From positions 94-64,093 of the forward strand of contig CAZJZI010000008.1 in the NCBI GenBank assembly GCA_964550435.1: a DNA stretch of 64,000 nt, written 5' to 3'. Below the pieces are notes generated by a model. That model saw only the letters and a list, made by a program, of their open reading frames with translations, was not told where the DNA came from and did no database searches. This DNA comes from an uncultured Chitinophagales bacterium (lineage in GTDB: Bacteria > Bacteroidota > Rhodothermia > Balneolales > HLUCCA01). Positions 1-41,062 of this stretch are shown here, in pieces; position 1 is the first letter of the stretch, and the number at the start of each line of letters is the position of its first letter. The position numbers and the translations under genes are program-made.

Positions 1-522
1 GATGCCCGGATTCATCCAGATACTTCCGCCGAAGGTGTTCAACCAGTCGGGATTAGCTTTTGTAATATGTTGTGGTTCGTTAGCAACGGCATAAGCGTCG
101 ATTTCTGAAGTATTACCAACGTTAAACACATTGTACCAGGCATGGACTTCGAGACCGTACTTTTTAGATTCATCGATGACAAATTGAAGTGGATCCCAAC
201 CTGGATTCTGGCCCATTGTACCTGTTAATCGTATGGCCCAAGGAAGTCTTTCGCTAACATAGTGAGCATCTCCCCTTGCTGTTACCTGAAATACAATAGC
301 GTTCATGCGCATATCAGCGTGACGCTGAACGATTGCACGTAGGGTGGCTTGCTGTTCTGCAACATTAGTGGTTTTGGGCCAGTCTAGGCCTAGTGCAGTT
401 GCAACCCATATCGATCTGAACTCTTCTTTTGGTGGTTCTGATGAAGGTTGTTGGAGAGCTTGGGAGAACATGGTAGTCGCCAAAAGCATCCATCCGGTGA
501 TCAGTAGTAACGTTTTTTTCAT
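1..522 (-). CDS. Glycoside-hydrolase-like family 10 (GHL10/DUF187, YngK-like) secreted protein, N-terminal part only (3' end beyond window)
   Basis: Not in the ORF track because it is edge-truncated. The reverse complement of 1..522 reads without stops from the ATG at 522. It gives MKKTLLLITGWMLLATTMFSQ (signal peptide), then FRSIWVATALGLDWPK..MNAIVFQVTARGDAHYVSERLPW..GWDPLQFVIDESKKYGLEVHAWYNVF, the GHL10 pattern. Confidence 0.8.
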   Translation of the reverse strand, partial: MKKTLLLITGWMLLATTMFSQALQQPSSEPPKEEFRSIWVATALGLDWPKTTNVAEQQATLRAIVQRHADMRMNAIVFQVTARGDAHYVSERLPWAIRLTGTMGQNPGWDPLQFVIDESKKYGLEVHAWYNVFNVGNTSEIDAYAVANEPQHITKANPDWLNTFGGSIWMNPGI

Positions 523-547: not shown

Positions 548-586
548 AAACAAAAAGAGGCACTTACTCCAGACGAGCAAGTGCCT
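548..586 (-). terminator. Rho-independent terminator downstream of 621..1991
   Basis: Perfect 9-bp stem GAGGCACTT/AAGTGCCTC (556..586) with a 13-nt loop. On the minus strand it is followed by a U-rich tract (CUUUUUGUUUUC). Confidence 0.6.
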
Positions 587-620
587 CAAACTCGATTAGA
601 TCGAATAGTTCATCGTTAAT

Positions 621-1991
621 TTATTTAACGAGTGTCATTTTGTTGGTCAGACGAACGTTACCGCTGTTCAATTCATACAGGTAAACACCTGATCCGAGTT
701 GATCAGCATTGAAGGTTACGTTGTGTGTACCAGCAGGCATATCCTGATTAACAAGAGTTGCCACCACGCGACCCAGCATGTCATACACACGAAGTGTGGT
801 CATGCCTGCCTCACCGATGCTATATCGGATTGCGGTAGTTGGGTTAAATGGGTTTGGATAGTTCTGCTCGAGTGTGAATCCTTCTGGGATTTCAGCACCA
901 CGATCGATACTAACGGCCTCAGCACGGGTGAACTTCTGGAGACTTCCAGGTCCGTTATTGAATGATCCAACATATGCAGTTAGTCCATCAGGACTGAATG
1001 CCATAGAACGTGGAACCTGATACACAGTTGCTTCACCATAGTTCCAGGTAAATTCATCAACTACTGAAGCAGATGTCAATGAAAACCCATAGTATGTGTT
1101 TGAAATCCATGGTTCGACGGCATCTGGGTTGTTACCAACACCGGCACCTGAGAAATACAGGATTTCTGAGTCAGGATATCTGGCAATTGAACCTGGATTT
1201 GCACCAATTGCAATTGGAAGACCAACTGTGTACTCTTCGAATACTCCACCTTCCCATACTCGAATGTGTCCAGCTGGACCACCTTCTTCGTAAGCATCGG
1301 TCTGTGGGTTGAAGATTTTCGAACCGTCATTTGAGATCTCAAGAGTCCTTGAAAATCCTAATTTCTCGGTAGTAACTGTATTCAAGACTGCCCAGCTATC
1401 ACTTGGATCGTAAATCACGATTGGTGATCCAGGAAATACGAAAGACACAGCAACAAAGCCATCCACTGTGATCGCAGGACGGTTTGGTGCGTGAGAAGCA
1501 GTTTCGGTACGCATGAAAGTAACTTCAGCTACTTCAAGTGGTTCACCAGTTTCTGCATCGAATACATGTATAAATGAACGAGACTGATTCCAGACTCCAC
1601 CAATCACCGGATTAGGTGCTGCATCTGTAGCAGCGGCAGTCATCCGAAAACCGTGTGATGACACATAGATTTTCCCATCGTAGAAATTTGCACCAGTTAA
1701 TGGGCCAAATCTCAGGAGGGAATCGCCAACTGTTGAACCAATGATTGGTGAAAACTCAGCTTGGGTTCCGTCTTCGTTATAAATATAAATTGGATTGAAG
1801 CGTCTATTATTTTCGCTATCCAACGTACTGTAATATGGGGTAAGCCATACTTTTCCATCTGTATCAACAGCCAATCCATGCGCATTGGTGTTTGCAACAG
1901 AATCCGGGAATACACTGTCGAATTCCCACTGTGCTGAAGCCACCATTGGCACCAACAGCATCATCATAGTGATTCGTATCACATGTTTCAT
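621..1991 (-). CDS. Secreted beta-propeller-like protein with T9SS type-A C-terminal sorting domain; function unknown
   Basis: 456-aa ORF with a signal peptide (MMMLLVPMVASAQ). The C-terminal ~80 aa (LEQNYPNPFNPTTAIRY..RVYDMLGRVV..GVYLYEL..KMTLVK) match the T9SS CTD pattern. The body is repetitive and strand-rich. Confidence 0.8.
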   Translation of the reverse strand: MKHVIRITMMMLLVPMVASAQWEFDSVFPDSVANTNAHGLAVDTDGKVWLTPYYSTLDSENNRRFNPIYIYNEDGTQAEFSPIIGSTVGDSLLRFGPLTGANFYDGKIYVSSHGFRMTAAATDAAPNPVIGGVWNQSRSFIHVFDAETGEPLEVAEVTFMRTETASHAPNRPAITVDGFVAVSFVFPGSPIVIYDPSDSWAVLNTVTTEKLGFSRTLEISNDGSKIFNPQTDAYEEGGPAGHIRVWEGGVFEEYTVGLPIAIGANPGSIARYPDSEILYFSGAGVGNNPDAVEPWISNTYYGFSLTSASVVDEFTWNYGEATVYQVPRSMAFSPDGLTAYVGSFNNGPGSLQKFTRAEAVSIDRGAEIPEGFTLEQNYPNPFNPTTAIRYSIGEAGMTTLRVYDMLGRVVATLVNQDMPAGTHNVTFNADQLGSGVYLYELNSGNVRLTNKMTLVK

Positions 1992-2022: not shown

Positions 2023-2047
2023 GTGGACCGGACTCAAACCGGTCCAC
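2023..2047 (-). terminator. Hairpin / probable terminator closing the TBDT operon
   Basis: Perfect 9-bp stem GTGGACCGG/CCGGTCCAC with a 7-nt loop, 35 nt downstream of the stop of 2082..3293. The U-tract on the minus strand is weak (AUUUAGUU). Confidence 0.45.
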
Positions 2048-2081: not shown

Positions 2082-3293
2082 TCAGGGAGCGTCTTTCTGA
2101 ACATTCAGAGAGATGACCCTGTTATTGCCAGTAGTTGGCAATAATGTCATTAATAAGTTCTGAGTACCGTCAAGATACTCCATTTTTAAGATGGTACCAG
2201 GAATAATGCCCGGGTACATTTGGGACACTTGTCCACTTGGTGTGACCTGATACAGAGGTTTCGTTTCGTTCATACCAACAAACACCGTACCATCGGCGGC
2301 AACGGCAATGGCGGTCGGACGACCTTCACCACCAGCTTCCGTAAGGTTTGCAACTACTTGTTCAGGTCCCGGAACTAGGTCTGCAAGTAGTTCTACCTTC
2401 CATACATAAGAAACGTTTTCTTTTGTGCCTGCTACATAAATGTGGCCGTCAAAATAATCCAACGCGTAGATAGTAGCATCAAACGGGAATCGCACTACAG
2501 CGCCAGCGGGACTTATTCGGTTTAAACGAGCATTAGAAGCATTTCCTTCGTTTGTACCACCTGACCATACGTTTCCGGCTTCATCTATAGTGATGTCTTC
2601 TGTTCTGCCTATCCCTCTACCCCATGTAGATGGGGTTCCACCTGATGGATCGATACGGTAAACAAACGGTACCGCTCCACCACGCACCATATAAACGGAT
2701 CCATCCGGACCAACCTTAACGGATCTAAAGAACCAGGATTGAGCGGTTCCAAAAGCAGGATTGATAACCGTTTCACCATCTGAAGCAACTTTTTTAACGC
2801 CTGCAGGTGCACCACTTGCATCGTAAGAGACATAATAGTTGTTATCAGAGTCGTAGCCGGCCGCCCATGGATTTTCGTTATCAGGGAATGATACAGCCGT
2901 TCTAAACAAGGCCTGGAGTCTGTATTTCACCGAATTACTGAACGCTTCTACACCTAAAACTCCTACCTTGATCCCGATTGAGTCGGCAACAAGATTTGGT
3001 GTTTTTACTACTATTTGCGATGGTGACGCACTGACTATTTCTGCTCTTACATTATTGAAATAGACAAATAGTTCTGTTGTATTTGCTGTGAAATTACTAC
3101 CAGAAATCGTTACTTCCTCGAAACCGGCGAAGTATCCCCCTTCAGGTGATACAGCACTAATAACAGGTGTTGTGCCTTTATTGTAGTCCTCGTCGAACAG
3201 GCTGGCCGATTCCGGGGTTTCACACGCTACCACAGCCATTCCGATGGCTAGTATCGGCAGAATTCGTTTGAAAAATGAGTACCCGTATTTCAT
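2082..3293 (-). CDS. IPT/TIG-domain lipoprotein with NHL/beta-propeller-like repeats
   Basis: 403 aa with a lipobox (LAIGMAVVAC followed by ETPES). It has an Ig-like IPT/TIG segment (ISAVSPEGGYFAGFEEVTISGSNF..IVVKTP) and repeats of the type GPDGSVYMV, DEAGNVWSG and AADGTVFVG. Confidence 0.8.
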   Translation of the reverse strand: MKYGYSFFKRILPILAIGMAVVACETPESASLFDEDYNKGTTPVISAVSPEGGYFAGFEEVTISGSNFTANTTELFVYFNNVRAEIVSASPSQIVVKTPNLVADSIGIKVGVLGVEAFSNSVKYRLQALFRTAVSFPDNENPWAAGYDSDNNYYVSYDASGAPAGVKKVASDGETVINPAFGTAQSWFFRSVKVGPDGSVYMVRGGAVPFVYRIDPSGGTPSTWGRGIGRTEDITIDEAGNVWSGGTNEGNASNARLNRISPAGAVVRFPFDATIYALDYFDGHIYVAGTKENVSYVWKVELLADLVPGPEQVVANLTEAGGEGRPTAIAVAADGTVFVGMNETKPLYQVTPSGQVSQMYPGIIPGTILKMEYLDGTQNLLMTLLPTTGNNRVISLNVQKDAP

Positions 3294-3317
3294 GTTGTTC
3301 TCAGGTATTAATTAATA

Positions 3318-4331
3318 TTAAAAACTTAGTTGTACCGAGAGTCGGTTCACACTGTTAAAGACACCGAAAGCGGTGTGGCTGTAGTCAGCCCGGATTCCAT
3401 ATCGACGTGCGAACGGGAGGTTAACACCCACACCCATCGAAATACCTTGTTCATCGGTTGGGAATACATATCCACCACGGAGGAATAGTCGGTCCATGAA
3501 TCCGTACTCTGCACCGATCATCAACTGTTCGAAGTAATCACGTGGTCTGTTTGCATCGATACTCACCAGGAGTTTATGCATTTCAGGATTAATTGACGTC
3601 AAATCCAATACATTCATCGCCAATCCGATTCTGAATGTAAGTGGCAGTTCTTGTGTATCCTGAATGTAGGTCACTTCATTGGAGTAGTTTCTGACCGACA
3701 TCGCAAAGTTCAGACTTTCGAAACCGGTTTTGTAGAGAACCCCGAAGTCAACTGCATAGGTTTGTAGATCGAACTGTTGTCGTACAAGGCTTCCTTCGTT
3801 CAGACCAATAGGTGCATTAGAAAGGTTTATATCAACATATCTGACATTTGCACCTACCGAAAACTGACTCGATATCGCCCTTGAGTAGCTTATCCCAAAC
3901 GCAATTGCATTCGGATTGTAAGTCCCAAGAACCTCATACCCAAGATCACTGTTATCACGAATGGTTTCAGTCAGGTCGCCGTAATCGACGCCCATGAATG
4001 AGAGACCAATAACTCCGTATAATCCATTTTTCGGAGCAAATGTAAGTGCAGCATACTGATAATCGATATCAGCGATCCAACTCACATTACCAATACTCAC
4101 ATCAAATAAAGAAGTTTGAAACGCCGAGTTTGCAGGATTGTAGAAAATTGACAATGAACGATCTTCTACAGCTGTCATTGCATCTCCCATTCCAGTAGCG
4201 CGTGCACCCAGAGGAGCTGAGAGAAACTTCATAGTTGTTTGTCCACGCTTGCGTTGAGCTTCTGCCACATCATGTAACACGAAGCCGAAGACAAGAGTAC
4301 TTATAAATAGGGTATAAATTACTTTTTTCAC
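3318..4331 (-). CDS. PorV/PorQ-family outer-membrane beta-barrel protein (T9SS-associated family)
   Basis: 337 aa with a signal peptide. The N-terminal motif KFLSAPLGARATGMGDAMTAVEDRSLSIFYNPANSAF is characteristic of PorV/PorQ-type barrels. The protein has alternating beta-strand character and ends in ..SVQLSF. Confidence 0.72.
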   Translation of the reverse strand: MKKVIYTLFISTLVFGFVLHDVAEAQRKRGQTTMKFLSAPLGARATGMGDAMTAVEDRSLSIFYNPANSAFQTSLFDVSIGNVSWIADIDYQYAALTFAPKNGLYGVIGLSFMGVDYGDLTETIRDNSDLGYEVLGTYNPNAIAFGISYSRAISSQFSVGANVRYVDINLSNAPIGLNEGSLVRQQFDLQTYAVDFGVLYKTGFESLNFAMSVRNYSNEVTYIQDTQELPLTFRIGLAMNVLDLTSINPEMHKLLVSIDANRPRDYFEQLMIGAEYGFMDRLFLRGGYVFPTDEQGISMGVGVNLPFARRYGIRADYSHTAFGVFNSVNRLSVQLSF

Positions 4332-4344
4332 GGGATAGCCTTTA

Positions 4345-6465
4345 TTACATGATTACGACAAATTTCCGGGTTGTTTTTTCACCGGTATCCAGATTTTCAA
4401 TAACTGCGATGTAGACACCACTCACTACACGCTGACGCCATTTGGTATTCAGGTTCCATGAGGCATCACCGCTACCGTTTGTATGGTTAATGGTTTGAAC
4501 CAATTCTCCAAGTTCGGTGTAGATATCAATTCTGGCACGTCCCGGGACTTCGAAGAACTGAATTTCGAATCCTGCGTAGGATACATCGGTACTTGCTGAA
4601 CGGACAAATGGGTTAGGAACGATCGTAATCTGATCCATGCTGGTTCCAGGAGGTCTCAAAAGACGTGCTGGATCGTAAGTCTGGGTCAGATATCTGTTGC
4701 TTTTCAACGGTCCTGAAGGAGTTAAACCTGTTCCATTGTTATCAGAAGCATTTCCAATAGCTTGTATATAGTAATAATGATCCAGACCTCGGATTGGACC
4801 ACCGACAGGATTCTGATCAGTATCGGCGAATTCTCTTGCCGATGCAGGTAGTTCAGCTACTTTTGTATAGACACTATCACGTCTGAATTGAGCGCGGTAG
4901 ATTTCAAATCCTGTGATGTTTCCAACTTCTTCATCAGGATATTCCCATTCGAGATAGACACCATCACCACCCGAATTCACGCGAAACGTGCTTGGAGGTG
5001 TTGGAGCTTTCGGGATGTTGAAACCTGAGTCAAAATTGGCTTTAGCACGGGCAAAGGTCTGCATAAGTGAATCACGACTTGTAAATACCCACTGGTTTTT
5101 TGTCATGGTTGCATTTACACTGTGCCCATCGTTGTAGGAGATTTGTAGGTTATTATTACCACCTGATCTCTTGTAAGCAGTTCCAATTTGTGTTGCAGCT
5201 TCACGGCTAAGACCTGCTGAAGCCTCAACTATTACTATACGCACACTCTCACCTGGTGCCAGGGTATATGGGCCAATACCTTTTGCCGCTGAGAATCCAC
5301 CTGAAGTACCACGAGATGGATCACCAGTAGGATTCAAAAAGCCCGGTTCGCCGGAAGGCTCTACCAGGTATGCGTGACGATTGGTTCTTCCACGCATCAT
5401 GAATTCGAGGTATTCTCGTTCCATTCTGGCGTTATTAAACGGGTCATTTGATGAATTCAACCCATCATCAGATCCGGTTTCGGTCATCGTATATGGTTGA
5501 TTTGGGTCATCTGCTGAGTTGCCAGGAGCAGTATCTGCATGAAGAACCGCGTTTCCAACAAATTGATGTGCACCCAGTCGTCCGGTAGTATCTTGGGGTT
5601 GAACGAGTCCGGAAGAGGTTGATGCTGTCCAGATTGGAGCTCCGATGTTGTCATATTGGGTAAATGCAGGAAGCTTTCCATGCCAAACGAAGTGACCTCT
5701 AAGCCCTTCAGGAGCACCATAATCGGGTCCTAAGTCATCTCCAAATCTATCAACCATTGCGTTTATTCCCCAACCAGTAGCATTACCAATCACATAACGT
5801 GTTTGATGCAGAACTGAATAGCGTTCCTGCCAGAAGAACATTACGTCGGTAAGGGTTTTATTCGGGTAGATGACCGCATCGGTGTTATCCGCTTTACCGG
5901 TATTGGTAAATATGTACTCACGAACGTGGTAATTGTCATGATATTCGTTACTAAATGCCATAACACGACGTTCCATAGTTATACCAATGGAAGTATTGAT
6001 TCGAGAATAGATCATTCGATCAGCCGGAATCGTTGGATCTACTTCATCCACTTCATCAGCAACGTTAAATGTTTCTTCATCATTAACCAGTACTTCAACT
6101 TTCGGAAATCTTCCGATGAGTTTATGTTCCATCGGAAAAAATGATCCCAATCCGGAGACACGTGGTCCCACATGGACTACTTTATATGGGAAACTAGTGT
6201 TACTTGCATCTGTAAAGGCAGTAGTTCCAATCCAAAATGCTTTAGCTGCCTGTGAGTCCTGGTGATCGTACAATGCTGGCCAGCGCAATCCATACTGCTG
6301 TTGTGCGACAAGAGCATGTTCGCGCTCGGTACCGTTTGGCATGTAGAAGTTTTGAAGGGAACCAATTCCCAACCATCGGGCCTGTTGCGCAGTACCTTCG
6401 TGAGCACTCATCCCGAGGATGAACGCCGCAAACAGGACAATGTGTATGATTCTATTTTTAGACAT
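4345..6465 (-). CDS. Large secreted protein: unrecognised N-terminal region, FN3-like domain, T9SS-CTD-like tail
   Basis: 706 aa with a signal peptide (IVLFAAFILGMSAHEGTAQ). It has an FN3-like segment (PPSTFRVNSGGDGVYLEWEYP..ITGFEIYRA). The C-terminus (ITIVPNPF..RIDIYTELGELV..SGVYIAVIEN..RKFVVIM) resembles a T9SS sorting / FlgD-Ig-like domain. Confidence 0.78.
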   Translation of the reverse strand: MSKNRIIHIVLFAAFILGMSAHEGTAQQARWLGIGSLQNFYMPNGTEREHALVAQQQYGLRWPALYDHQDSQAAKAFWIGTTAFTDASNTSFPYKVVHVGPRVSGLGSFFPMEHKLIGRFPKVEVLVNDEETFNVADEVDEVDPTIPADRMIYSRINTSIGITMERRVMAFSNEYHDNYHVREYIFTNTGKADNTDAVIYPNKTLTDVMFFWQERYSVLHQTRYVIGNATGWGINAMVDRFGDDLGPDYGAPEGLRGHFVWHGKLPAFTQYDNIGAPIWTASTSSGLVQPQDTTGRLGAHQFVGNAVLHADTAPGNSADDPNQPYTMTETGSDDGLNSSNDPFNNARMEREYLEFMMRGRTNRHAYLVEPSGEPGFLNPTGDPSRGTSGGFSAAKGIGPYTLAPGESVRIVIVEASAGLSREAATQIGTAYKRSGGNNNLQISYNDGHSVNATMTKNQWVFTSRDSLMQTFARAKANFDSGFNIPKAPTPPSTFRVNSGGDGVYLEWEYPDEEVGNITGFEIYRAQFRRDSVYTKVAELPASAREFADTDQNPVGGPIRGLDHYYYIQAIGNASDNNGTGLTPSGPLKSNRYLTQTYDPARLLRPPGTSMDQITIVPNPFVRSASTDVSYAGFEIQFFEVPGRARIDIYTELGELVQTINHTNGSGDASWNLNTKWRQRVVSGVYIAVIENLDTGEKTTRKFVVIM

Positions 6466-6486
6466 CAGATTCTTGTTTTATATGTA

Positions 6487-9400
6487 TTAGAAGGTAATTC
6501 GCACACCAAAAATGACGTTACGCGGATTAAAGAAAGCGAACGATGACAAGTTTGGCATATCGATGTACGCCTTATCATCGAGTACTTGCTGAACGAAGTC
6601 CTGATTAGCCGCTACCCAGCTTCCGTTGCGGAACTGGTAGTACGTTTGATCAGCTTCGTTAAAGTAAAGCGGGCGCTCGTGCGGGTTTTGTACATTCTGG
6701 ATGTTAATGACTGCAACAATCGGTTGGAACGCGATGTTTTCTTTTCGGTAGGTTCCTGGCTTGTCGTCACCAGGTACAGATAAATAGGATCCACGAAGTG
6801 GCTGAAGTTTATCTGCAGGTAAATGCAGAGATCTCATGTAGTCGTTGTAATCATCCCCATCAACAAATCCATTTTGGGTGAGATAACGTGTGTTAAACAC
6901 GTTGCTCACGTCAATAAAGAAGTTTAGATCGGTTTCAAGTGCACGGAGTGTACGTGTGAATCTTAAGTCCACATTATAATCATCAACCCACCGAAGGTTG
7001 TTACTGATACCCGGGATGGATCCACCGCCTGTCCAGGTAACCGCATAACCACGTACCCAGGAAGCAAGGATTGTAGCTCTCCAGTTCGCCAATGGACGGA
7101 ATCCAAGGATTGCTGGACCGAAGTCATCGGGACTGAAGAAATCCAGGTTCAAACGGGAATAAGGCTGAGCAACTGGTTTTGACTGTGGGTTAGCAGAGTT
7201 TACTCTTTCGAACTCACGTTGGTCTTTAGAGTTTTGGTAGTAGGTAGCATAGCCAAATCGACCGGTTGAACGCACCATGTAGGTAAAGTTCACGAATCCT
7301 GTCCAGAAAGACCCTTGTGCCTTACGTAAGGTCAACTCAAATCCCTTGGTGTCACGGTATGAGTCGGCCGTTGGTACTGAATACAATCTACCACCACCTG
7401 ACGCAATCAAGTTTCTGCTAGACCCTGGAATATTTGTTTCATCTTTGTAGTACCCGGCTACACGAATCAGGTACCGTTCGGTGAAAGCTTGTTCGTAACC
7501 CAACTCATAGGATACTGTTTTAGGTAGGTCAAGACTTGGATCAGCGATTCGCGATATCGATTGGTCTTCAAGAAACTTTTCAACCAAATAAAGAGAAGTT
7601 GGAGTCGGCATGGAGCGGAAATGCCCATAGTTGAAATACAACTTACTCATAATCGTGATCGGGAATGAAACCGCAAGTCGAGGACTTAAATCAAAGTTTG
7701 GTTTCGTGCGCTCGGTTTCGAATACTTCATCAAGATTTTCTACGGGTTGACTGAATCGAGGATCAAATTCATCATATACAATCCAATCCGTATTAGCATC
7801 AGAGTAGTCTAAACGGAGTCCTACTTCAGCAACGATACCCTCGTACTCGAATTTGTTTTGAGCATACAAGGCACCACGACGTGGAGAGTTGTTCCATATT
7901 ACCTGTGAACGTCCGCTAGGAAGATAAATATCTACTGAGGCATAATTTACGTCACTGAAGGTCTGCACAAACTGTACACCAGTTTTTAGCTGGTTGTAGC
8001 GATTATACTGGTTTGTGTAGTCAAAGCGTGCGTTGATATATTCTACTTTCGAGCTATCACGCGAGTTTGACATCCCGACTCCCATACGCAGACCGGATCC
8101 GATTCCGGAGGAAGGAAGTTCATAGAATCCGAATGGCCCCTCATCCACTGCATATCCGTTCCCAAAAGTGCGGACTGGAGTCAGGTCCCGTGCTCTACCC
8201 GGGTTAGTATCGTATTCAGAACTGAAATAGTTAGCAAGTACCTCGAAATACGATTTATTATTGATGGTCTTAGTAAACTTACCTCCAAGCAAACGGTATT
8301 CAACTCGTGTTGGAGCCCAATAGTCTGAGGCAAAAATTCGGGAGTTTCCGAATGAATTTCTGTTTCTGACGTTATTGGCGATACCCGCAGCACTTACAAA
8401 GATTCCAGGTGCGCCAACGTTATTGCTATTGGTACCGTTTTCGGCTCCGATCATCGCATCGATCGAGAGTTTCATACCACGACCAACGTCACTGGTTAGT
8501 TTAAGGTTGGAAGTATATGTTTCGTAACGATCTCGTGATAGTGGAATTACGTACATGGTTTGTGAGCGTCTGTGAGATGCCCAGAAACGCATGTTACCCA
8601 ATTTATCACTAACTACAGGAATTGGACCACCAAAACCAAAGTCCAATGTATAATCAGGCTCTGTAATTGCCATATCTTTACGGTGTTGCCATAAAAATAC
8701 TTGCTGAGCAGCGGCCGGGGTTAAATGTCGTGTTGGATCCGGATCATCTAAGGTTCCTTCGGCAACAGATATCCATCCCTCAAACTGTGGATACTGACGG
8801 CGAGTCCATGGATCCCATGCATTAGTACCTGTCCAGGCTACTTCTGGATCCAGAAATGGTCTGATCCAATACGAATTAGGATCATTCACCAATGGTCCGA
8901 AGTGTTTCTTTCTTGGAGGCTCATGCTGATAATAGATATCGAAATTATATCGGTCACGGCTTCCTTCTTTAGTCACCACGTTGACAATACCAGACTGGAC
9001 ATCGCCATACTCGGCGCTGAATCCACCTGATTGTACCTGGATTTCAGAAATGGAAGTAATTGATACAGCGGTAAATGGTGAGTTGTTACGCTCATCCTTT
9101 AATGAAATACCGTTCAGGTTGAATGATACCTCACTTGATGCACCCCCACGAACGCTAAGTCCCTGAAATCCTGCTTGAAGACCAACTATACCGGCAACTG
9201 AGGTAACAGGAAGGTTTTTGACTTCTTCAGCGTCGATGTTTACCCGGCTGGCGCCTACATCTCGTTGTACAATCGGACGATCAGCCACAACAACGACTTC
9301 TTCGCCTGAGAATACTTCTTCAGACATTCGAAAATTCAATGTTGTTGTTTGGTTGATGTTGATTCGAACATCCTCAACAACGACTGTAGAGAATCCGATC

Positions 9401-9669
9401 ATAGATGCCTTGATGGTGTAGGTACCTGGGCGAACGTTGATCACTGAAAAATAACCATCGGCATTCGTTGCTGCACCGATAATCAATTCTTCAATAATGA
9501 CGTTTACTCCGATAAGTGGCTCACCGGTTTCGGCGTCGGTTACTGTACCCTCCAAACGACCTGACTGTGCCAGTACACTCGCTGAAGAAACCAGCAGGAA
9601 TACGGCCATTAGTGCAAATCGTTTGAGCACCGATGCAATCGTTTCAGATTGTATATGTACTTGATGCAT
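6487..9669 (-). CDS. TonB-dependent receptor with N-terminal CarboxypepD_reg-like domain (SusC/RagA-like architecture, no SusD partner)
   Basis: 1060 aa with a signal peptide. It has a carboxypeptidase-regulatory-like domain (GRLEGTVTDAETGEPLIGVNVII..DGYFSVINVRPGTYTIKASMIGF) and a plug region (GLSVRGGASSEVSFNLNGISL). The long barrel ends in ..FGVRITF with a terminal aromatic residue. Confidence 0.9.
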   Translation of the reverse strand: MHQVHIQSETIASVLKRFALMAVFLLVSSASVLAQSGRLEGTVTDAETGEPLIGVNVIIEELIIGAATNADGYFSVINVRPGTYTIKASMIGFSTVVVEDVRININQTTTLNFRMSEEVFSGEEVVVVADRPIVQRDVGASRVNIDAEEVKNLPVTSVAGIVGLQAGFQGLSVRGGASSEVSFNLNGISLKDERNNSPFTAVSITSISEIQVQSGGFSAEYGDVQSGIVNVVTKEGSRDRYNFDIYYQHEPPRKKHFGPLVNDPNSYWIRPFLDPEVAWTGTNAWDPWTRRQYPQFEGWISVAEGTLDDPDPTRHLTPAAAQQVFLWQHRKDMAITEPDYTLDFGFGGPIPVVSDKLGNMRFWASHRRSQTMYVIPLSRDRYETYTSNLKLTSDVGRGMKLSIDAMIGAENGTNSNNVGAPGIFVSAAGIANNVRNRNSFGNSRIFASDYWAPTRVEYRLLGGKFTKTINNKSYFEVLANYFSSEYDTNPGRARDLTPVRTFGNGYAVDEGPFGFYELPSSGIGSGLRMGVGMSNSRDSSKVEYINARFDYTNQYNRYNQLKTGVQFVQTFSDVNYASVDIYLPSGRSQVIWNNSPRRGALYAQNKFEYEGIVAEVGLRLDYSDANTDWIVYDEFDPRFSQPVENLDEVFETERTKPNFDLSPRLAVSFPITIMSKLYFNYGHFRSMPTPTSLYLVEKFLEDQSISRIADPSLDLPKTVSYELGYEQAFTERYLIRVAGYYKDETNIPGSSRNLIASGGGRLYSVPTADSYRDTKGFELTLRKAQGSFWTGFVNFTYMVRSTGRFGYATYYQNSKDQREFERVNSANPQSKPVAQPYSRLNLDFFSPDDFGPAILGFRPLANWRATILASWVRGYAVTWTGGGSIPGISNNLRWVDDYNVDLRFTRTLRALETDLNFFIDVSNVFNTRYLTQNGFVDGDDYNDYMRSLHLPADKLQPLRGSYLSVPGDDKPGTYRKENIAFQPIVAVINIQNVQNPHERPLYFNEADQTYYQFRNGSWVAANQDFVQQVLDDKAYIDMPNLSSFAFFNPRNVIFGVRITF

Positions 9670-9876
9670 GTTAATTGGACTTAGGATTATTCAGATAAGA
9701 AAATTCTGTTGACGTATGAATGCCAAAAGCTGGTTGAGGTTCTGAAAGCTGGATTGCTATTCTCATATTCATACATTCTGTTTACGGTTACCCCCAGAGA
9801 AAAGCGCTTCCTCTGAAATCACACTCATATTGGTTCTATCACATAGCTTCAAGCTATAAAAATTGAGGTGATTTGT

Positions 9877-9884
9877 CAAAGGTA
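9877..9884 (-). promoter_or_regulatory. Candidate Bacteroidota-type -7 box (TAccTTTG) for the TBDT operon
   Basis: The plus strand reads CAAAGGTA, which is TACCTTTG on the minus strand and matches TAnnTTTG. I saw no well-spaced -33 TTTG. It would imply a leader of about 200 nt. Confidence 0.25.
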
Positions 9885-9968
9885 TCTACGCATTTTTACG
9901 TAGTTTTTGACAATTACTATCAACTCTCGATAATTATCACCGCCTATCTTTTTGTTATACAATAAGTT

Positions 9969-10021
9969 AATCCTCATTCATATTCAATATAAAATGTTGA
10001 ATATCAATCTAAATGAGGATT
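9969..10021 (-). terminator. Long imperfect hairpin downstream of the amidase gene (terminator-like)
   Basis: The outer arms AATCCTCATT (9969..9978) and AATGAGGATT (10012..10021) and the inner arms ATATTCAA (9980..9987) and TTGAATAT (9997..10004) are all perfect complements. The structure starts 13 nt after the stop at 10035. There is no clean U-tract. Confidence 0.45.
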
Positions 10022-10034
10022 TTCATATTCAATT

Positions 10035-11852
10035 TTAACGAAGTAACAACATTTTTCGGGTCTTCACCACTATACCATCGACTTCCAGGGCATAAACAAG
10101 TACCCCACTTGCAACACTGCTGGCTTCAAAAGAAACACTGTGTCTCCCTGCCGAGTAGGAACGGTCGGCCGGTACAGCAATCATTTGTCCCTGAGAATTG
10201 TACACCAATACACGTACGTTTGACGCTTGTGGAAGCTCAAAACTTATACTGGTACTCGGATTGAATGGATTCGGGTAGTTCTGTTCAAGTACGAATCCAT
10301 TTGGAGATTCTTCGTCATCGATTGAAGTCGGTGATGCCGTGGTGAACGTGTAGGTTTGAGACACCGTGAAAGTATCCGAATTGACCGCAACAATACGATA
10401 GTGATATAATGTTGCAGGCATCAGATTCTCTAACTCAAAGCGTATTGTTTCTATAGCATCTGACGCTTCAACTTCGATTTCATCAGTAGACATTGAAAGG
10501 TTATCTACTTCTGATCCGTATTCCATGAACAATTCTATGTCAGATTCAAAATTTCTTACTCCGACTTCAGCATTGAATCGTGTCGTAACTGCAGTAGTAT
10601 CCTCTGCAGTTAAGATGGCAACCTCGGGTGGATTCAGAAACGCGTGGGTTCTGTTTCTAAGCGTTGGGAGATAATTGTACAGTCTCTGTCCCGGACACTC
10701 GGTCGCAGATCCATCTCTATGCCCGGAAATTGTATAGTAGTTTCGACTGGTAAATGGATGAATATTCCGTACTCGCACATCAATTCCCTTGTCATACGCC
10801 TTCCATGCCAGCACACGCATCAAAGAGTTGATTGCATTTTGAGTTGGCATCACAGTGGTATAATGTCCAATGACACAGACACCCATTGAATTCGTGTTCG
10901 AACCACCTACGTGGGCACCAATGACATCCACGAATCCGTTAAAGTTATGTGCACGACCCTGATATACAACGCCATTTCCATCTACAAGCCAATTATATCC
11001 AATGTCTGACCATCCGTTGGTCTGGGTGTGCAAAATGTAATACGAGCGAACTACAGCAGCAAAATCTGATGAGTTGGTATGTCCTGCCGAATGGTGGACA
11101 AACATGTGCGTTACATTAGTTTGAGACCTGCTTGCAGTGTTTGTAAGTCCTAATGTGGCTCCCCAGCTTGAACGGTCTACATACACGGGAATTGGGTAGG
11201 AAGATATTTCACCCATAGGCCCACCTGATGTTGATTTCTCAAGGGATCGGACATCAGGAATACGGTTTTTAGCTTCGGTAAATGGAATTACAGTCGATTT
11301 GTGCGTCTCCAGATCTGACTGTGGAGTTACGCCAGGATTAATGAAGTGAAATGAAATCTCGTCCAGGGTTGGTTGGAGCTGCCTCATTTCAGCGTGTAAC
11401 GTTGCGCGATATTGTATGTATTGCGTGCCAACCGGGAAAAATACAAGTACACTTGCAATACGGCCGTCTTCGAATTCAACATGATGGTCCACATCAGCGA
11501 CCATCCAGTCGCTCCATTCGCGAGTATTTTTGCTACCTCTGACTTCGATTACTATCTGATGATCGTTGGCAACTTCACCCTTCCAGTTTAAAGCCACGGC
11601 AACGAAAGGATGTTCTTTGGTCAGTGGAACCAGCTCCTCAGGACCTGTATATCTGATTATTTTATCTGCAACAAGCTCAGTTCCATATCCAGGTCTGGCT
11701 TTCCCAGGTGACATTCCCAACTCAGGACTTCTGTTGACTACAATTCGTTCGGTCCCGGAATCTGAAGCATTTGGATTATTGTCTTGCGCATTCAAAGTTG
11801 AACTTGTGACCAAAACAGCCAGCAAGAGTATCAACATTTTTTTTAAGTACAT
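10035..11852 (-). CDS. N-acetylmuramoyl-L-alanine amidase (Amidase_2/PGRP type) with T9SS C-terminal sorting domain
   Basis: 605 aa with a signal peptide (LLLAVLVTSSTLNAQ). Catalytic-domain motifs are VTHMFVHHSAGH, WSDIGYNWLVDGNGVVYQGR, GAHVGGSNTNSMGVCVIGHY and SGHRDGSATECPG. The C-terminus reads LEQNYPNPFNPSTSISFEL..VLVYNSQGQ..GVLVYALE. Confidence 0.85.
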   Translation of the reverse strand: MYLKKMLILLLAVLVTSSTLNAQDNNPNASDSGTERIVVNRSPELGMSPGKARPGYGTELVADKIIRYTGPEELVPLTKEHPFVAVALNWKGEVANDHQIVIEVRGSKNTREWSDWMVADVDHHVEFEDGRIASVLVFFPVGTQYIQYRATLHAEMRQLQPTLDEISFHFINPGVTPQSDLETHKSTVIPFTEAKNRIPDVRSLEKSTSGGPMGEISSYPIPVYVDRSSWGATLGLTNTASRSQTNVTHMFVHHSAGHTNSSDFAAVVRSYYILHTQTNGWSDIGYNWLVDGNGVVYQGRAHNFNGFVDVIGAHVGGSNTNSMGVCVIGHYTTVMPTQNAINSLMRVLAWKAYDKGIDVRVRNIHPFTSRNYYTISGHRDGSATECPGQRLYNYLPTLRNRTHAFLNPPEVAILTAEDTTAVTTRFNAEVGVRNFESDIELFMEYGSEVDNLSMSTDEIEVEASDAIETIRFELENLMPATLYHYRIVAVNSDTFTVSQTYTFTTASPTSIDDEESPNGFVLEQNYPNPFNPSTSISFELPQASNVRVLVYNSQGQMIAVPADRSYSAGRHSVSFEASSVASGVLVYALEVDGIVVKTRKMLLLR

Positions 11853-11890
11853 ATCTATTGTTTTCTATCCGTTTACATTTAAATACAGCA

Positions 11891-12427
11891 TTATTGGAAG
11901 TAATCCAGAATGCCGGATTGTATTATCCCATTGAATTCATCCATTTTAAATTCAATGACCATTTCGTTTTCGAAAAATATATAGAGCCCGGTTGAGTCAT
12001 CTTGATAGGGCATATAAATACGAATTTCTTTGCGGATTGGGGCGCCTTTGATGCTTTGCTTGACTACGATCGGAGCGTCTCCCAGTGCTTCATCGATTTC
12101 ATTCATTGTTCTGCCATTCAAATCCAGAAATCCGTCTGTGTTTAAAAATGTGTGATAAGGGGCAACATCCAAACGATAAAGGTTTACTTCCGAAGTTTCA
12201 GCATCTGGTGACTCTATTGGATTCAGACGATCCTGTATTGCGGCTATTTTGTCGGCTGTGTCCGTGGAATTGTAAGTACTGTCTGAAATAGCCTGAGTGT
12301 TTGTGTCACGCTGTACGAACTCTTCTGAAGTCGAATCAGACTGATTCCGATTTTGGTCAATCGTACAACCAAGCAGTGAGAAAACAAAACCTAACCAAAA
12401 CAAATATCTGTGTGGTACAAAAATCAT
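11891..12427 (-). CDS. Hypothetical lipoprotein
   Basis: 178 aa with a lipobox (FVFSLLGC followed by TID) and a low-complexity S/T/D-rich linker, then a globular C-terminal half. It lies 38 nt upstream of the amidase on the same strand. Confidence 0.7.
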   Translation of the reverse strand: MIFVPHRYLFWLGFVFSLLGCTIDQNRNQSDSTSEEFVQRDTNTQAISDSTYNSTDTADKIAAIQDRLNPIESPDAETSEVNLYRLDVAPYHTFLNTDGFLDLNGRTMNEIDEALGDAPIVVKQSIKGAPIRKEIRIYMPYQDDSTGLYIFFENEMVIEFKMDEFNGIIQSGILDYFQ

Positions 12428-29523: not shown

Positions 29524-29531
29524 TATATTTG
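29524..29531 (+). promoter_or_regulatory. Candidate -7 promoter box TATATTTG upstream of actA
   Basis: It matches the Bacteroidota TAnnTTTG consensus and lies 70 nt upstream of the actA ATG. There is no TTTG at the ideal -33 spacing. Confidence 0.3.
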
Positions 29532-29600
29532 CGAACTGTATTTGCATCTGTACGACAACCAATCGTACGAACACGAATAACTTACAACAACTGGTCAAAC

Positions 29601-30248: not shown

Positions 30249-30284
30249 TCAGATTTTTAACCGAATACACCAACGCTATTTAGC

Positions 30285-33293: not shown

Positions 33294-33326
33294 TAACAGG
33301 GAATAACAAAAGTAATTGTATCACAA

Positions 33327-34730: not shown

Positions 34731-34756
34731 TTTTTGAAACGCTAACATCCCAAAAG

Positions 34757-35302: not shown

Positions 35303-35328
35303 ATCGAAGTACTGATAAACAACGTTCT

Positions 35329-35967: not shown

Positions 35968-35994
35968 GATTATCACCCACTAGCGATAGAATTT

Positions 35995-37179: not shown

Positions 37180-37193
37180 TTTAACTCAAGACC

Positions 37194-38358: not shown

Positions 38359-38375
38359 ATTTAGCATAACTAAAC

Positions 38376-39323: not shown

Positions 39324-39325
39324 AT

Positions 39326-41020: not shown

Positions 41021-41062
41021 TACCAACAAAATCAGTTAACTAAGCTAAATAACTAAGCATTC

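What the first reader, a model, noticed from the sequence alone, without database searches (positions are those of the whole stretch)
2082..9669. SusD-less TonB-dependent receptor operon with its own PorV/PorQ paralogue, a T9SS-tailed 706-aa protein and an IPT/TIG lipoprotein
Seen in sequence:
- Four minus-strand genes are separated by only 21, 13 and 24 nt. They are bounded by a 365-nt upstream region and a 9-bp hairpin (2023..2047), so they look like one transcription unit.
- The receptor has the CarboxypepD_reg N-terminal domain typical of SusC/RagA transporters. No SusD/RagB-like gene follows.
- The partner positions hold three other proteins. One is a 706-aa secreted protein with an FN3-like segment and a T9SS-CTD-like tail; I could not assign its first ~450 aa to any family. 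The second is a PorV/PorQ-family barrel. The third is a lipoprotein with an acidic mature N-terminus (C-ETPESASLFDEDY, reminiscent of Bacteroidota surface-lipoprotein export signals) carrying IPT/TIG and propeller domains.

Established knowledge: PorV is the outer-membrane shuttle that binds T9SS cargo CTDs.

Inference: this is a dedicated surface capture and uptake module. T9SS-delivered and lipoprotein partners would assemble around a TBDT with a private PorV-like barrel. I do not know this architecture as a characterised system.
Basis: partly seen in the sequence, partly recalled or inferred. Interest (0 to 1): 0.68.

Follow-up and report, generated by a model that had tools for sequence, protein, structure and literature searches.

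The report
TonB receptor with T9SS-anchored partner proteins
This is a real, strongly conserved and uncharacterised outer-membrane gene module in which a TonB-dependent receptor travels with a type-IX-secreted protein and that protein's own PorV-like barrel instead of a SusD lipoprotein. It probably captures and imports a polymer, possibly bacterial cell-wall debris.

Summary
The four minus-strand genes, their 21/13/24-nt spacers, the 365-nt upstream gap and the 9-bp hairpin are exactly as described, and every domain call was verified.

- The barrel scores as PorV/PorQ family (195.8 bits, cutoff 90).
- The gene order is conserved.
- The 706-aa protein matches no CAZyme or peptidase.
- Its tail is a T9SS-type CTD, closest to PorZ's.

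The unit is larger than reported. A fifth gene (621-1991, NHL propeller with a T9SS CTD) belongs to it. A T9SS GHL10 gene follows (truncated at 1-522), and T9SS peptidoglycan amidases often flank it.

Conditional on finding a 706-aa homologue, in about 90 loci from Balneolales, Rhodothermaceae and Marinimicrobia:
- the receptor precedes the 706-aa homologue in 61/61 cases;
- a PorV-like barrel follows it in 78/81.

Receptor, 706-aa protein and barrel also duplicate together.

Best reading: a SusD-less surface capture and uptake complex whose SusD-position partner is delivered by T9SS and held on a cognate barrel. The neighbouring enzymes hint at peptidoglycan as substrate. All of this is inference, with no experiment and no multimer model. 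I found no description of it in the searchable literature. I rate it a new variant of a known kind, interest about 0.7.

The parts
6487..9669 (-). Divergent TonB-dependent receptor (1060 aa). It has an N-terminal CarboxypepD_reg-like extension, a TonB-box-like EEVVVVA motif, a plug, a large barrel and a C-terminal Phe. It is not SusC/RagA by the curated model.
   Evidence: -: CarbopepD_reg_2 1.2e-21; Plug 27.8 bits (cutoff 23.9); TIGR04056 scores only 63.7 against a cutoff of 368, and only over the N-terminus.
- a family profile hits the SusC/TBDT N-terminal-extension domains (6ytc, 9hfj), the PqqU and YncD plugs, and the PhuR barrel (2.3e-5).
- it precedes the 706-aa homologue in 61/61 loci with room.
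4345..6465 (-). 706-aa T9SS cargo in the 'SusD position'. Layout: signal peptide, beta-supersandwich domain with no family assignment (about 28-455), long helix (456-479), FN3 (about 487-572), PorZ-like C-terminal domain (about 600-706).
   Evidence: -: no Pfam hit for the N-domain; FN3; PorZ-CTD match in 21/22 family members.
- AF2 model with pLDDT 92.6.
- Foldseek TM only 0.3-0.35, and only to non-catalytic N-domains of GH94/GH116/GH15-type enzymes and YidC P1.
- more than 1100 homologues, 277 representative clusters at E<=1e-30, all unnamed.
3318..4331 (-). PorV/PorQ-family outer-membrane beta-barrel (337 aa). It is neither a PorV nor a PorQ equivalog. Proposed cognate anchor or shuttle for the 706-aa protein.
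   Evidence: -: NF033709 195.8 bits (cutoff 90); PorV equivalog 90.1 against 250; PorQ equivalog 78.5 against 220.
- matches F. johnsoniae PorV (6h3i_F) at 3.5e-8.
- follows the 706-aa homologue in 78/81 copies.
- orthologues are named 'PorV/PorQ family protein'.
2082..3293 (-). Lipoprotein (lipobox ...VVAC, then ETPESASLFDEDY) with an IPT/TIG domain (43-124) and an NHL/PknD-type six-bladed beta-propeller (about 135-390). Probably surface-exposed.
   Evidence: -: TIG 7.5e-14.
- profile hits to PknD and 'Pizza' propellers.
- every homologue examined has a lipobox Cys followed by a conserved SL(F/Y)D motif.
- 45/46 lipobox-containing homologues have at least one acidic residue just after the Cys.
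- follows the barrel in 60/65 loci.
2023..2047 (-). 9-bp GC-rich hairpin after the TIG gene, with a weak T-tail. It may be an attenuator or processing site, not the end of the unit.
621..1991 (-). Fifth gene: a 456-aa secreted NHL-type beta-propeller with a canonical type A T9SS CTD.
   Evidence: -: Por_Secre_tail 39.7 bits (cutoff 27).
- propeller profile hits.
- follows the TIG gene in 44/50 loci.
- absent in the closest relative, L001.
557..587 (-). Strong intrinsic-terminator-like hairpin (13 bp plus TTTTTGTTTT) 34 nt after the fifth gene's stop codon. It is the likely end of the transcription unit.
1..522 (-). 5' part of a GHL10 (PF02638) gene that runs off the window. In relatives this protein carries a T9SS CTD.
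   Evidence: -: GHL10 90.2 bits.
- a GHL10 gene starts within 1.5 kb downstream of the fifth gene in 26/41 loci with room.
- in several other loci it sits elsewhere in the flank.
10035..11852 (-). Upstream neighbour: a 605-aa Amidase_2 (N-acetylmuramoyl-L-alanine amidase) protein with a T9SS CTD-like tail.
   Evidence: -: Amidase_2 58.4 bits; Por_Secre_tail 26.2 bits against a cutoff of 27.
- this position is kept only in close relatives (L001, L002, L007, L008, L088).
9841..9910 (-). Conserved upstream block: the palindrome CTACGTAAAAATGCGTAG, followed by TTTG-N20-TAGCTTG. It is a promoter-like and operator-like element about 175 nt before the receptor's ATG.
   Evidence: alignment with the upstream regions of L001, L002, L007 and L008. 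Searches show the sequence and palindrome. The promoter reading rests on my own knowledge of Bacteroidota -33/-7 consensus sequences.

Best explanation
The locus encodes a conserved outer-membrane acquisition module of Rhodothermia-type Bacteroidota (Balneolales, Rhodothermaceae) and Marinimicrobia.

**Proposed mechanism**
- A divergent TonB-dependent receptor imports a substrate that is captured at the cell surface by three partner proteins.
- The 706-aa protein sits where SusD would be encoded. It is exported by the T9SS, and its PorZ-like C-terminal domain is held by the adjacent PorV/PorQ-family barrel, in the way PorQ holds PorZ. This would give a barrel-anchored binding protein or lid beside the receptor.
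- The TIG-NHL-propeller lipoprotein is flipped to the surface through its acidic N-terminus.
- A second NHL propeller is delivered by T9SS.
- T9SS-secreted enzymes encoded alongside would cut the polymer outside the cell. These are GHL10 (the fold of the Cwp19 lytic transglycosylase), muramoyl-L-alanine amidases and a NAGPA phosphodiester glycosidase. They make bacterial cell-wall (peptidoglycan) debris the leading candidate substrate.

**Shown here**
- Domain identities.
- Strict gene order.
- Co-duplication of the receptor/706-aa/barrel triad.
- The conserved enzyme neighbourhood.

**Inferred**
- Physical complex formation.
- CTD retention on the barrel.
- Direction of transport.
- The substrate.
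For: - **Domain assignments** were verified.
- **Order conservation**: receptor before the 706-aa homologue in 61/61; barrel after it in 78/81; TIG next in 60/65; fifth gene next in 44/50. This holds down to 32% identity and in Marinimicrobia.
- **Co-duplication.** The triad is tandemly duplicated as a unit in L045, L050, L058 and L076, with a single TIG gene after it. Divergent 706-aa/barrel pairs (34-36% and 24-30% identity) recur in L027, L028, L043 and L062.
- **Conservation levels.** The three core proteins are about equally conserved (0.45-0.49 mean pairwise column identity). The two propellers are at about 0.29.
- **PorZ-like CTD.** The 706-aa CTD matches PorZ's CTD in 21/22 members but TIGR04183 in only 6/22. 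It also matches PorZ structure 5m11.
- **Published precedent.** PorZ's CTD is retained to bind PorQ, and cognate PorV-like barrels have been proposed to protect CTDs from cleavage (PMC10202324). BamG is a FadL-like barrel that docks the surface protein BamH (PMC12578637).
- **Not obviously an enzyme.** The N-domain has no catalytic-domain match, and its near-invariant residues are mostly G, P and W.
- **Lipoprotein signal.** The lipobox followed by acidic residues is conserved.
- **Enzyme neighbourhood.** GHL10 lies directly downstream in 26/41 loci. Amidase_3 with a PD40 propeller, NAGPA, and Amidase_2 recur in different positions and orientations.
- **GHL10 chemistry.** The GHL10 domain of Cwp19 has peptidoglycan lytic-transglycosylase activity (PMC6016235).
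Against: - No experimental data, and no multimer prediction was possible.
- The window protein's CTD is just under the TIGR04183 cutoff (22.7 against 23).
- CTD conservation does not separate 'retained' from 'cleaved'. The fifth protein's ordinary CTD is even more conserved relative to its body.
- Whether the genome has a separate housekeeping PorV could not be checked.
- The enzyme neighbourhood is not universal. It is absent in Rhodothermaceae loci L005 and L089 and in Marinimicrobia locus L087.
- Another GHL10 protein is reported to act on starch (title of PMC9967864).
- One locus has an alpha-amylase neighbour (L064).
- No peptidoglycan-recycling cytoplasmic genes were seen in the flanks examined.
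- No riboswitch or regulator points to a substrate.
Confidence: 0.55

Rival explanations
1. The architecture is the same, but the substrate is some other polymer, such as an alpha-glucan, another glycan or a glycoprotein. On this reading the flanking amidase, GHL10 and NAGPA genes are a lineage-specific add-on or act on something other than murein.
For: - The enzyme neighbours are missing in L005, L089 and L087.
- A GHL10 protein (DogH) is reported to act on starch (title only).
- L064 has a GH13 alpha-amylase beside the cluster.
- The 706-aa N-domain most resembles sugar-enzyme accessory beta-sandwiches.
- Paralogues of that N-domain are fused to beta-helix, BNR and RCC1 domains.
Against: - Two unrelated amidase families (Amidase_2, Amidase_3), both specific for MurNAc-L-Ala bonds, recur beside the cluster, together with a GHL10 whose only biochemically defined relative read here is a peptidoglycan lytic transglycosylase.
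- No classical CAZyme family was found inside the conserved block.
Confidence: 0.2
2. The genes are co-regulated but do not form a complex. The PorV-like barrel is only a dedicated T9SS shuttle for the locus's cargo (the 706-aa protein, the 456-aa propeller, GHL10 and the amidases). These are then released or A-LPS-anchored, and the receptor works alone or only with the lipoprotein.
For: - PorV is an established cargo shuttle (Glew et al. 2017, as cited in PMC12578637).
- Several T9SS cargo genes cluster here.
- In L027, L043 and L062 the extra barrel sits immediately before a GHL10 cargo gene as well as after a 706-aa paralogue.
Against: - The barrel count tracks the 706-aa paralogue count, not the number of cargo genes.
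- The receptor is always directly upstream of the 706-aa gene (61/61), and the three co-duplicate.
- The 706-aa CTD is specifically PorZ-like, and PorZ's CTD is the retained kind.
Confidence: 0.13
3. The receptor-like protein works in export or surface assembly and not in import. This would resemble the Oar-type CarboxypepD_reg TonB-dependent protein needed for PopC secretion in Myxococcus. The module would then build a surface structure, such as an adhesin or envelope layer.
For: - The N-terminal CarboxypepD_reg domain and the roughly 1050-aa size resemble Oar-type proteins (my own knowledge).
- The barrel is too divergent for PF00593.
- The module appears near single-copy and unusually conserved for a nutrient system.
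- Three of the five products are surface proteins with no catalytic domains.
Against: - There was no hit to the Oar-like barrel model, nor to any secretion component.
- A plug and a conserved TonB-box-like motif are present, as in importers.
- Secreted hydrolases next door fit a feeding locus.
Confidence: 0.08
4. The 337-aa barrel is a FadL-type channel for a small hydrophobic compound and has nothing to do with T9SS.
For: - PorV belongs to the FadL superfamily.
- Some orthologues also carry precomputed hits to Toluene_X (FadL) and TraF_2.
Against: - It passes the curated PorV/PorQ family model by a wide margin, and the window protein has no FadL hit.
- It is always encoded directly after a CTD-bearing protein.
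Confidence: 0.04

Closest known systems
SusC/SusD (RagA/RagB) transporter pairs and 'utilisome' complexes of polysaccharide utilisation loci
   Same: - A TonB-dependent receptor with an N-terminal CarboxypepD_reg-like extension.
- A partner gene immediately downstream.
- Additional surface binding proteins and secreted or surface enzymes encoded alongside.
- An acidic lipoprotein export-type N-terminus on one partner.
   Different: - The receptor fails the SusC model (63.7 against 368 bits, N-terminus only).
- No SusD-like protein is present anywhere in the locus or window.
- The SusD-position partner is an all-beta T9SS cargo, not a helical lipoprotein.
- A PorV-family barrel is an obligatory third member.
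PorQ-PorZ and PorV-PorU pairs of the T9SS attachment complex
   Same: - A PorV/PorQ-family barrel is paired with a protein whose CTD is most like PorZ's.
- In the known pairs the CTD stays uncleaved and tethers the protein to the barrel (PMC10202324).
   Different: - The 706-aa protein shares only the CTD with PorZ. It has no double propeller.
- The barrel reaches neither the PorV nor the PorQ equivalog cutoff.
- The pair is wedded to a TonB-dependent receptor, and can be present twice per locus.
PorP/SprF-like barrels encoded next to their type B CTD cargo (SprB-SprF type)
   Same: A dedicated outer-membrane barrel is encoded directly beside the specific T9SS cargo it serves.
   Different: - The barrel here is PorV/PorQ family, not PorP/SprF.
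- The CTD is type A/PorZ-like. The CHU_C type B model scores only 17.6 against 27.
- The linkage to a transporter is not a feature of SprB-SprF pairs.
Non-SusD lipoprotein 'lids' of Bacteroides TonB-dependent transporters (BtuB-BtuG, XusA-XusB; Price & Arkin preprint 10.1101/2023.03.17.533168)
   Same: - A non-SusC receptor has an adjacent co-directional lipoprotein predicted to sit on its outer face.
- Beta-propeller lipoprotein partners are known (my own knowledge for BtuG and XusB).
   Different: - The TIG-NHL lipoprotein is two genes away from the receptor and is less conserved than the core.
- A term search of that preprint's main text found no occurrences of 'PorV', 'type IX', 'FadL' or 'propeller'.
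BamG-BamH of the Bacteroidota BAM complex
   Same: A 14-stranded FadL/PorV-like barrel docks a surface-exposed protein next to a larger barrel (PMC12578637).
   Different: - The BamG model scores only E = 0.034 (13.2 against 250 bits).
- The partner here is a T9SS cargo, and the large barrel is a TonB-dependent receptor, not BamA.

Membership tests
TonB-dependent transporter superfamily (1060-aa protein) | Plug domain | tested here: met
   PF07715 scores 27.8 bits against a cutoff of 23.9. The family profile hits the PqqU (9.9e-7) and YncD (3.4e-6) plugs.
TonB-dependent transporter superfamily (1060-aa protein) | 22-strand barrel recognisable by sequence or structure | tested here: inconclusive
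   There is no PF00593 hit. The family profile matches a 200-residue stretch of the PhuR barrel at 2.3e-5. The C-terminus ends in Phe.
TonB-dependent transporter superfamily (1060-aa protein) | TonB box before the plug | tested here: inconclusive
   The conserved motif EEVVVxA lies just before the plug (window residues 123-129; consensus). Its resemblance to the SusC-type TonB box is from my own knowledge, not a model score.
SusC/RagA family (TIGR04056) | Full-length score at or above the curated cutoff | tested here: not met
   63.7 bits against 368.25, matching only residues 39-190.
Canonical PUL (SusC/SusD pair) | SusD/RagB-like gene adjacent to the receptor | tested here: not met
   There is no SusD-family Pfam or NCBIfam hit at E<=0.1 in the four cluster proteins. 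The fifth protein was scanned only against Pfam at E<=0.001. None appeared in the other 38 window ORFs scanned at E<=1e-3 to 1e-5.
PorV/PorQ family (NF033709) | Score at or above the curated cutoff | tested here: met
   195.8 bits against 90, full length 31-337. Pfam PorV scores 33.2 against 27. PDB PorV 6h3i_F matches at 3.5e-8.
PorV proper (NF033710) / PorQ proper (NF033711) / PorV2 (NF052325) | Equivalog cutoff | tested here: not met
   90.1 against 250; 78.5 against 220; 40.5 against 325.
T9SS type A cargo: 706-aa protein | C-terminal sorting domain model (TIGR04183 / PF18962) | tested here: inconclusive
   - TIGR04183 scores 22.7 against 23; there is no PF18962 hit.
- Only 6/22 relatives reach E<=0.01, but 21/22 match the PorZ CTD.
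- The AF2 model shows a C-terminal beta-sandwich, and Foldseek hits PorZ 5m11.
- Long paralogues pass PF18962 at 41-43 bits.
T9SS type A cargo: 456-aa protein | PF18962 at or above cutoff | tested here: met
   39.7 bits against 27.
PorZ (NF052228) | Full-length equivalog score, including the two beta-propellers | tested here: not met
   29.5 bits against 260. Only the last ~90 model positions (668-756 of 757) match.
Bacteroidota surface-exposed lipoprotein | Lipobox Cys followed by acidic export-signal residues | tested here: met
   The window sequence is ...MAVVAC-ETPES. Of 46 distinct lipobox-containing homologues, 45 have at least one and 33 have at least two D/E in the five residues after the Cys. 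Actual surface exposure is not testable with these tools.
IPT/TIG plus NHL propeller (403-aa protein) | Domain models | tested here: met
   TIG scores 51.9 bits against 20.9. SGL and NHL are below cutoff for the single sequence, but the family profile hits the PknD propeller at 2.3e-12 and designed NHL-type propellers at 2.6e-14.
Known CAZyme or peptidase (706-aa protein) | Any catalytic-domain match | tested here: not met
   There are no Pfam, NCBIfam or PDB sequence hits for residues 1-480. Foldseek matches only non-catalytic N-terminal sandwiches, at TM 0.25-0.35.
GHL10 (PF02638), gene at window 1-522 | Pfam cutoff | tested here: met
   90.2 bits against 27.9 on the truncated 174 aa.

The most novel reading that the evidence does not exclude
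The triad of receptor, 706-aa protein and PorV-like barrel is a third architecture for TonB-dependent surface complexes. In it the lid or binding partner is delivered by the type IX secretion system and tethered by its uncleaved PorZ-like CTD to a dedicated barrel, instead of being a lipoprotein like SusD or BtuG. On this reading the module is the core of a peptidoglycan (bacterial necromass) harvesting locus shared by Balneolales, Rhodothermales and the abundant ocean lineage Marinimicrobia.
Probability: 0.3. Interest if true: 0.85.

Novelty: new variant of a known kind. Interest (0 to 1): 0.7.

Why it matters
- **A new way to build a receptor complex.** TonB-dependent receptors with SusD-like lids define how Bacteroidota feed. 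A conserved alternative that recruits T9SS cargo through a private PorV-family barrel would link two hallmark systems of the phylum, T9SS and TBDT-based foraging, in one machine.
- **New roles for unexplained proteins.** It would give a function to the many unexplained PorV/PorQ paralogues. It would also define a large protein family that has no Pfam model (more than 1100 homologues, 277 representative clusters at E<=1e-30).
- **Ecological relevance.** The module occurs in Marinimicrobia and in saline and soil Balneolales. If its substrate is peptidoglycan, it bears on the turnover of bacterial necromass, a large and poorly understood carbon and nitrogen pool.
- **Testability.** Cultured carriers exist: Gracilimonas sp. 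BCB1 and Rhodohalobacter sp. 8-1.

Tried and rejected
The 84-sequence alignment was too diverse for the metagenome scan, so a 22-sequence alignment was used instead.
- **Whole-protein Foldseek** was dominated by FN3 hits. The N-domain was therefore remodelled alone and searched again. It gave only weak matches to non-catalytic supersandwich domains.
- **Riboswitch or leader RNA upstream of the receptor:** there were no Rfam hits at gathering threshold for the window, nor at E<=1 for 9600-10100.
- **Are the TIG protein and the 456-aa protein paralogues?** There is no pairwise similarity, although both are NHL-type propellers at profile level.
- **CTD conservation as a sign of CTD retention** was uninformative, because the ordinary CTD of the 456-aa protein is equally or more conserved.
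- **Wider flanks for peptidoglycan-recycling or regulatory genes:** the neighbours were heterogeneous. One locus had a ROK/HTH regulator and an SSF symporter, and one had an alpha-amylase.
- **Do long fusion paralogues of the 706-aa N-domain also sit beside receptors or barrels?** They do not.
- **Literature.** Six successful full-text searches found no description of this gene arrangement. That covers only the open-access library.
- **Not possible here:** multimer prediction, a structure model of the receptor (prediction cap reached), and a census of PorV-family genes in the source genome.

Full report
**1. Observation**

| Coordinates | Length |
|---|---|
| 6487-9669 | 1060 aa |
| 4345-6465 | 706 aa |
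| 3318-4331 | 337 aa (GTG start) |
| 2082-3293 | 403 aa |

- The spacers are 21, 13 and 24 nt, and the gap to the upstream gene (stop at 10035) is 365 nt.
- The hairpin GTGGACCGG-N7-CCGGTCCAC lies at 2047..2023. It is followed by ATTTAGTT, a poor T-run.
- A much better terminator (13-bp stem plus TTTTTGTTTT, 587..557) lies just after a fifth co-directional gene, 621-1991.

**2. What the proteins are**

*Receptor (1060 aa)*
- It has CarbopepD_reg_2 (1.2e-21) and Plug (27.8 bits, cutoff 23.9).
- On the SusC/RagA model it scores only 63.7 bits against a cutoff of 368, and only over its N-terminus.
- As a single sequence it matches no solved TBDT.
- A 30-sequence family profile hits SusC/TBDT N-terminal-extension domains, the PqqU and YncD plugs, and part of the PhuR barrel.
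- It is therefore a genuine but very divergent TonB-dependent receptor.

*337-aa protein*
- It passes the curated PorV/PorQ family model (195.8 bits, cutoff 90).
- It is far below the PorV, PorQ and PorV2 equivalog cutoffs.
- It matches F. johnsoniae PorV in the PDB at 3.5e-8.
- Orthologues are named 'PorV/PorQ family protein' by NCBI in Balneola, Gracilimonas, Rhodothermaceae and Neomarinimicrobiota.

*403-aa protein*
- It has a lipobox Cys, a TIG domain (7.5e-14) and, at profile level, an NHL/PknD-type six-bladed propeller.
- Every homologue examined has a lipobox Cys followed by a conserved SL(F/Y)D motif.
- Of 46 distinct lipobox-containing homologues, 45 have at least one acidic residue just after the Cys.

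*706-aa protein*
- Residues 1-480 have no Pfam, NCBIfam or PDB sequence match.
- An FN3 domain lies at about 496-572.
- The C-terminal domain is borderline on TIGR04183 (22.7 against 23) but matches the PorZ C-terminus (2.5e-7; PDB 5m11).
- 21 of 22 relatives match the PorZ CTD, and only 6 match the generic type A model at E<=0.01.
- AlphaFold2 gives a confident model (pLDDT 92.6). Its layout is an all-beta N-domain, a long helix, FN3, and a C-terminal sandwich.
- The N-domain, modelled alone (pLDDT 82), has only weak Foldseek matches (TM 0.25-0.35). These are to the non-catalytic N-terminal supersandwich of GH94, GH116, GH15 and GH161 enzymes and to the YidC P1 domain.
- No catalytic domain is present, and the near-invariant residues across 84 relatives are mostly Gly, Pro and Trp.
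- I read it as a binding or scaffold protein and not as an enzyme. This is inference.

*Fifth protein (456 aa)*
- It is an NHL-type propeller with a clear type A CTD (39.7 bits).

**3. Conservation**

- The 706-aa family is large and unnamed. There are more than 1100 hits in the 90% clustered collection, and 277 clusters at E<=1e-30 among 50% representatives.
- Members come from Balneolales, Rhodothermaceae, Rubricoccaceae and Marinimicrobia.
- I collected 92 loci. The 89 held when searches were run were scored, and all of them encode a 706-aa homologue.
- One search gave these counts, for copies or loci with enough flanking sequence:

| Relationship | Count |
|---|---|
| Receptor directly precedes the 706-aa homologue | 61/61 |
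| PorV-like barrel follows the 706-aa homologue | 78/81 |
| TIG lipoprotein follows next | 60/65 |
| 456-aa propeller follows next | 44/50 |

- Several of the misses reflect the tblastn sensitivity limit and not real absences.
- The order holds at 32% identity (L092) and in a Marinimicrobia genome (L087).
- In L045, L050, L058 and L076 the receptor/706-aa/barrel triad is tandemly duplicated in front of one TIG gene.
- In L027, L028, L043 and L062 a second, divergent 706-aa/barrel pair lies upstream.
- The three core proteins are about equally conserved (0.45-0.49 mean pairwise column identity). The two propellers evolve faster (about 0.29).
- These counts are conditional on the loci having been found through the 706-aa protein.
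- Long paralogues (1000-1600 aa) fuse the N-domain to RCC1, BNR/sortilin or beta-helix domains. They carry unambiguous Por_Secre_tail domains, but are stand-alone genes with no receptor or barrel beside them.

**4. Extended neighbourhood**

- The window itself continues with a GHL10 gene that starts at 522 and is cut by the window edge (PF02638, 90.2 bits).
- Upstream lie an Amidase_2 protein with a CTD-like tail (10035-11852) and a small lipoprotein (11891-12427).
- Across the loci, a T9SS GHL10 gene starts within 1.5 kb downstream of the fifth gene in 26/41 cases with room, and lies elsewhere in the flank in several more.
- By tblastn labelling of the 89 loci, a PD40 propeller recurs in 13 loci, a T9SS Amidase_3/Big_5 protein in 10, and a T9SS NAGPA phosphodiester glycosidase in 12.
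- These genes appear in different positions and orientations: divergent upstream in L006, L014 and L088, and co-directional downstream in L073.
- Linkage that persists despite rearrangement argues for functional coupling.
- The GHL10 domain of C. difficile Cwp19 is a peptidoglycan lytic transglycosylase (PMC6016235). Amidase_2 and Amidase_3 are N-acetylmuramoyl-L-alanine amidases.
- Because these enzymes are T9SS cargo, they act outside the cell. This makes exogenous bacterial cell wall the leading candidate substrate.
- Caveats:
  - The enzymes are absent from the Rhodothermaceae and Marinimicrobia loci inspected.
  - Another GHL10 protein is reported to act on starch (title only).
  - One locus has an alpha-amylase neighbour and another has a ROK-type regulator.

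**5. Mechanism**

- The best-supported model is a surface capture and import complex.
- The 706-aa protein always occupies the SusD position.
- Its CTD is of the PorZ kind. PorZ's CTD is retained to bind PorQ, and cognate PorV-like barrels have been proposed to protect such CTDs from cleavage (PMC10202324).
- A FadL/PorV-like barrel that docks a surface protein next to a larger barrel has a structural precedent in BamG-BamH (PMC12578637).
- Lipoprotein lids other than SusD are already proposed for non-SusC receptors in Bacteroides (10.1101/2023.03.17.533168).
- What is new here is an obligatory triad of receptor, T9SS cargo and PorV-family barrel.
- Rival readings are given separately with lower weight: the barrel as a mere shuttle, an Oar-like export role for the receptor, and a FadL-type channel.

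**6. Regulation**

- No Rfam family matches the window or the 365-nt leader region.
- A block at 9841-9910 is conserved in the upstream regions of four relatives.
- It contains the palindrome CTACGTAAAAATGCGTAG followed by TTTG-N20-TAGCTTG. This resembles a Bacteroidota -33/-7 promoter with an operator (my own knowledge of the consensus).
- It would leave a leader of about 175 nt.

**7. Context**

- The rest of the window is ordinary chromosome. It encodes SurE, PanB, UbiE, LigA, alternative complex III, caa3 oxidase, fumarase, glycosyltransferases and histidine-utilisation genes.
- There are no SusD genes and no T9SS core genes.
- The closest loci carry MAG titles that say 'Chitinophagales', whereas named protein relatives are Balneolales. 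I did not resolve the taxonomy.

**8. Verdict**

- I found no description of this arrangement in the searchable literature.
- It is best classed as a new variant of TonB-dependent surface uptake systems, with a realistic chance of being a distinct architecture.

Noticed in passing
window 1-522 (-): A truncated GHL10 (PF02638) gene runs off the window start. It is the sixth conserved neighbour of the cluster and carries a T9SS CTD in relatives.
   Followed up: yes
window 10035-12427 (-): An Amidase_2 protein with a T9SS-like tail (605 aa) is preceded by a 178-aa lipoprotein with no family. The pair is kept upstream of the cluster only in close relatives (L001, L002, L007, L008, L088). Whether the lipoprotein acts as an inhibitor or immunity factor is unknown.
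   Followed up: partly
window 9841-9910 (-): An upstream block is conserved in four relatives. It holds the palindrome CTACGTAAAAATGCGTAG, then TTTG-N20-TAGCTTG, which looks like a promoter with an operator. It implies a 5' leader of about 175 nt containing a small conserved hairpin (CAGAG...CTCTG).
   Followed up: partly
window about 9985-10034: A long imperfect palindrome (AATCCTCATTT...AATGAGGATT, with an inner TTGATATTCAA/TTGAATATGAA) lies right after the amidase gene's stop. It may be a terminator or a regulatory site.
   Followed up: no
L001:13206-15279: In the closest relative (706-aa protein 93% identical) the TIG gene is followed directly by GHL10. The 456-aa propeller gene is missing, so that component is dispensable or variable.
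   Followed up: partly
L027, L028, L043, L062 (upstream halves): A second, divergent 706-aa paralogue (34-36% identity) with its own PorV-like barrel (24-30%) sits upstream. In three of these loci it is followed by GHL10, and in L028 it is preceded by a partial receptor.
   Followed up: partly
L090:3493-6813; L091:7393-11901: The unassigned N-domain of the 706-aa protein also occurs in 1100-1500-aa stand-alone T9SS proteins fused to RCC1 or beta-helix domains. These have no receptor or PorV-like neighbour.
   Followed up: partly
L061:3715-6808: A ROK-family protein with an HTH domain and a sodium:solute symporter lie directly upstream of the receptor in one lineage. This may be a regulator and inner-membrane transporter for the imported product.
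   Followed up: no
L092:12716-15824: A convergent 737-aa CarboxypepD_reg/Plug receptor paired with a DUF4249 protein sits beside the cluster. It is another SusD-less receptor-partner pair.
   Followed up: no
L001, L002 record titles: The closest MAG records are titled 'uncultured Chitinophagales', while named homologues are Balneolales or Rhodothermaceae. The taxonomic label of the source is uncertain.
   Followed up: no
window 29529-41716 (+): An alternative complex III gene set (multihaem cytochrome, Fe-S subunit, NrfD, ActD, cytochrome c) is followed by SCO1 and caa3-type oxidase subunits. This is an ordinary aerobic respiratory island.
   Followed up: no
window 6487-9669 (-), N-terminus: The annotated start gives about 12 residues more before the signal-peptide 'AQ' than the family consensus does, so the true start codon may lie slightly downstream.
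   Followed up: no
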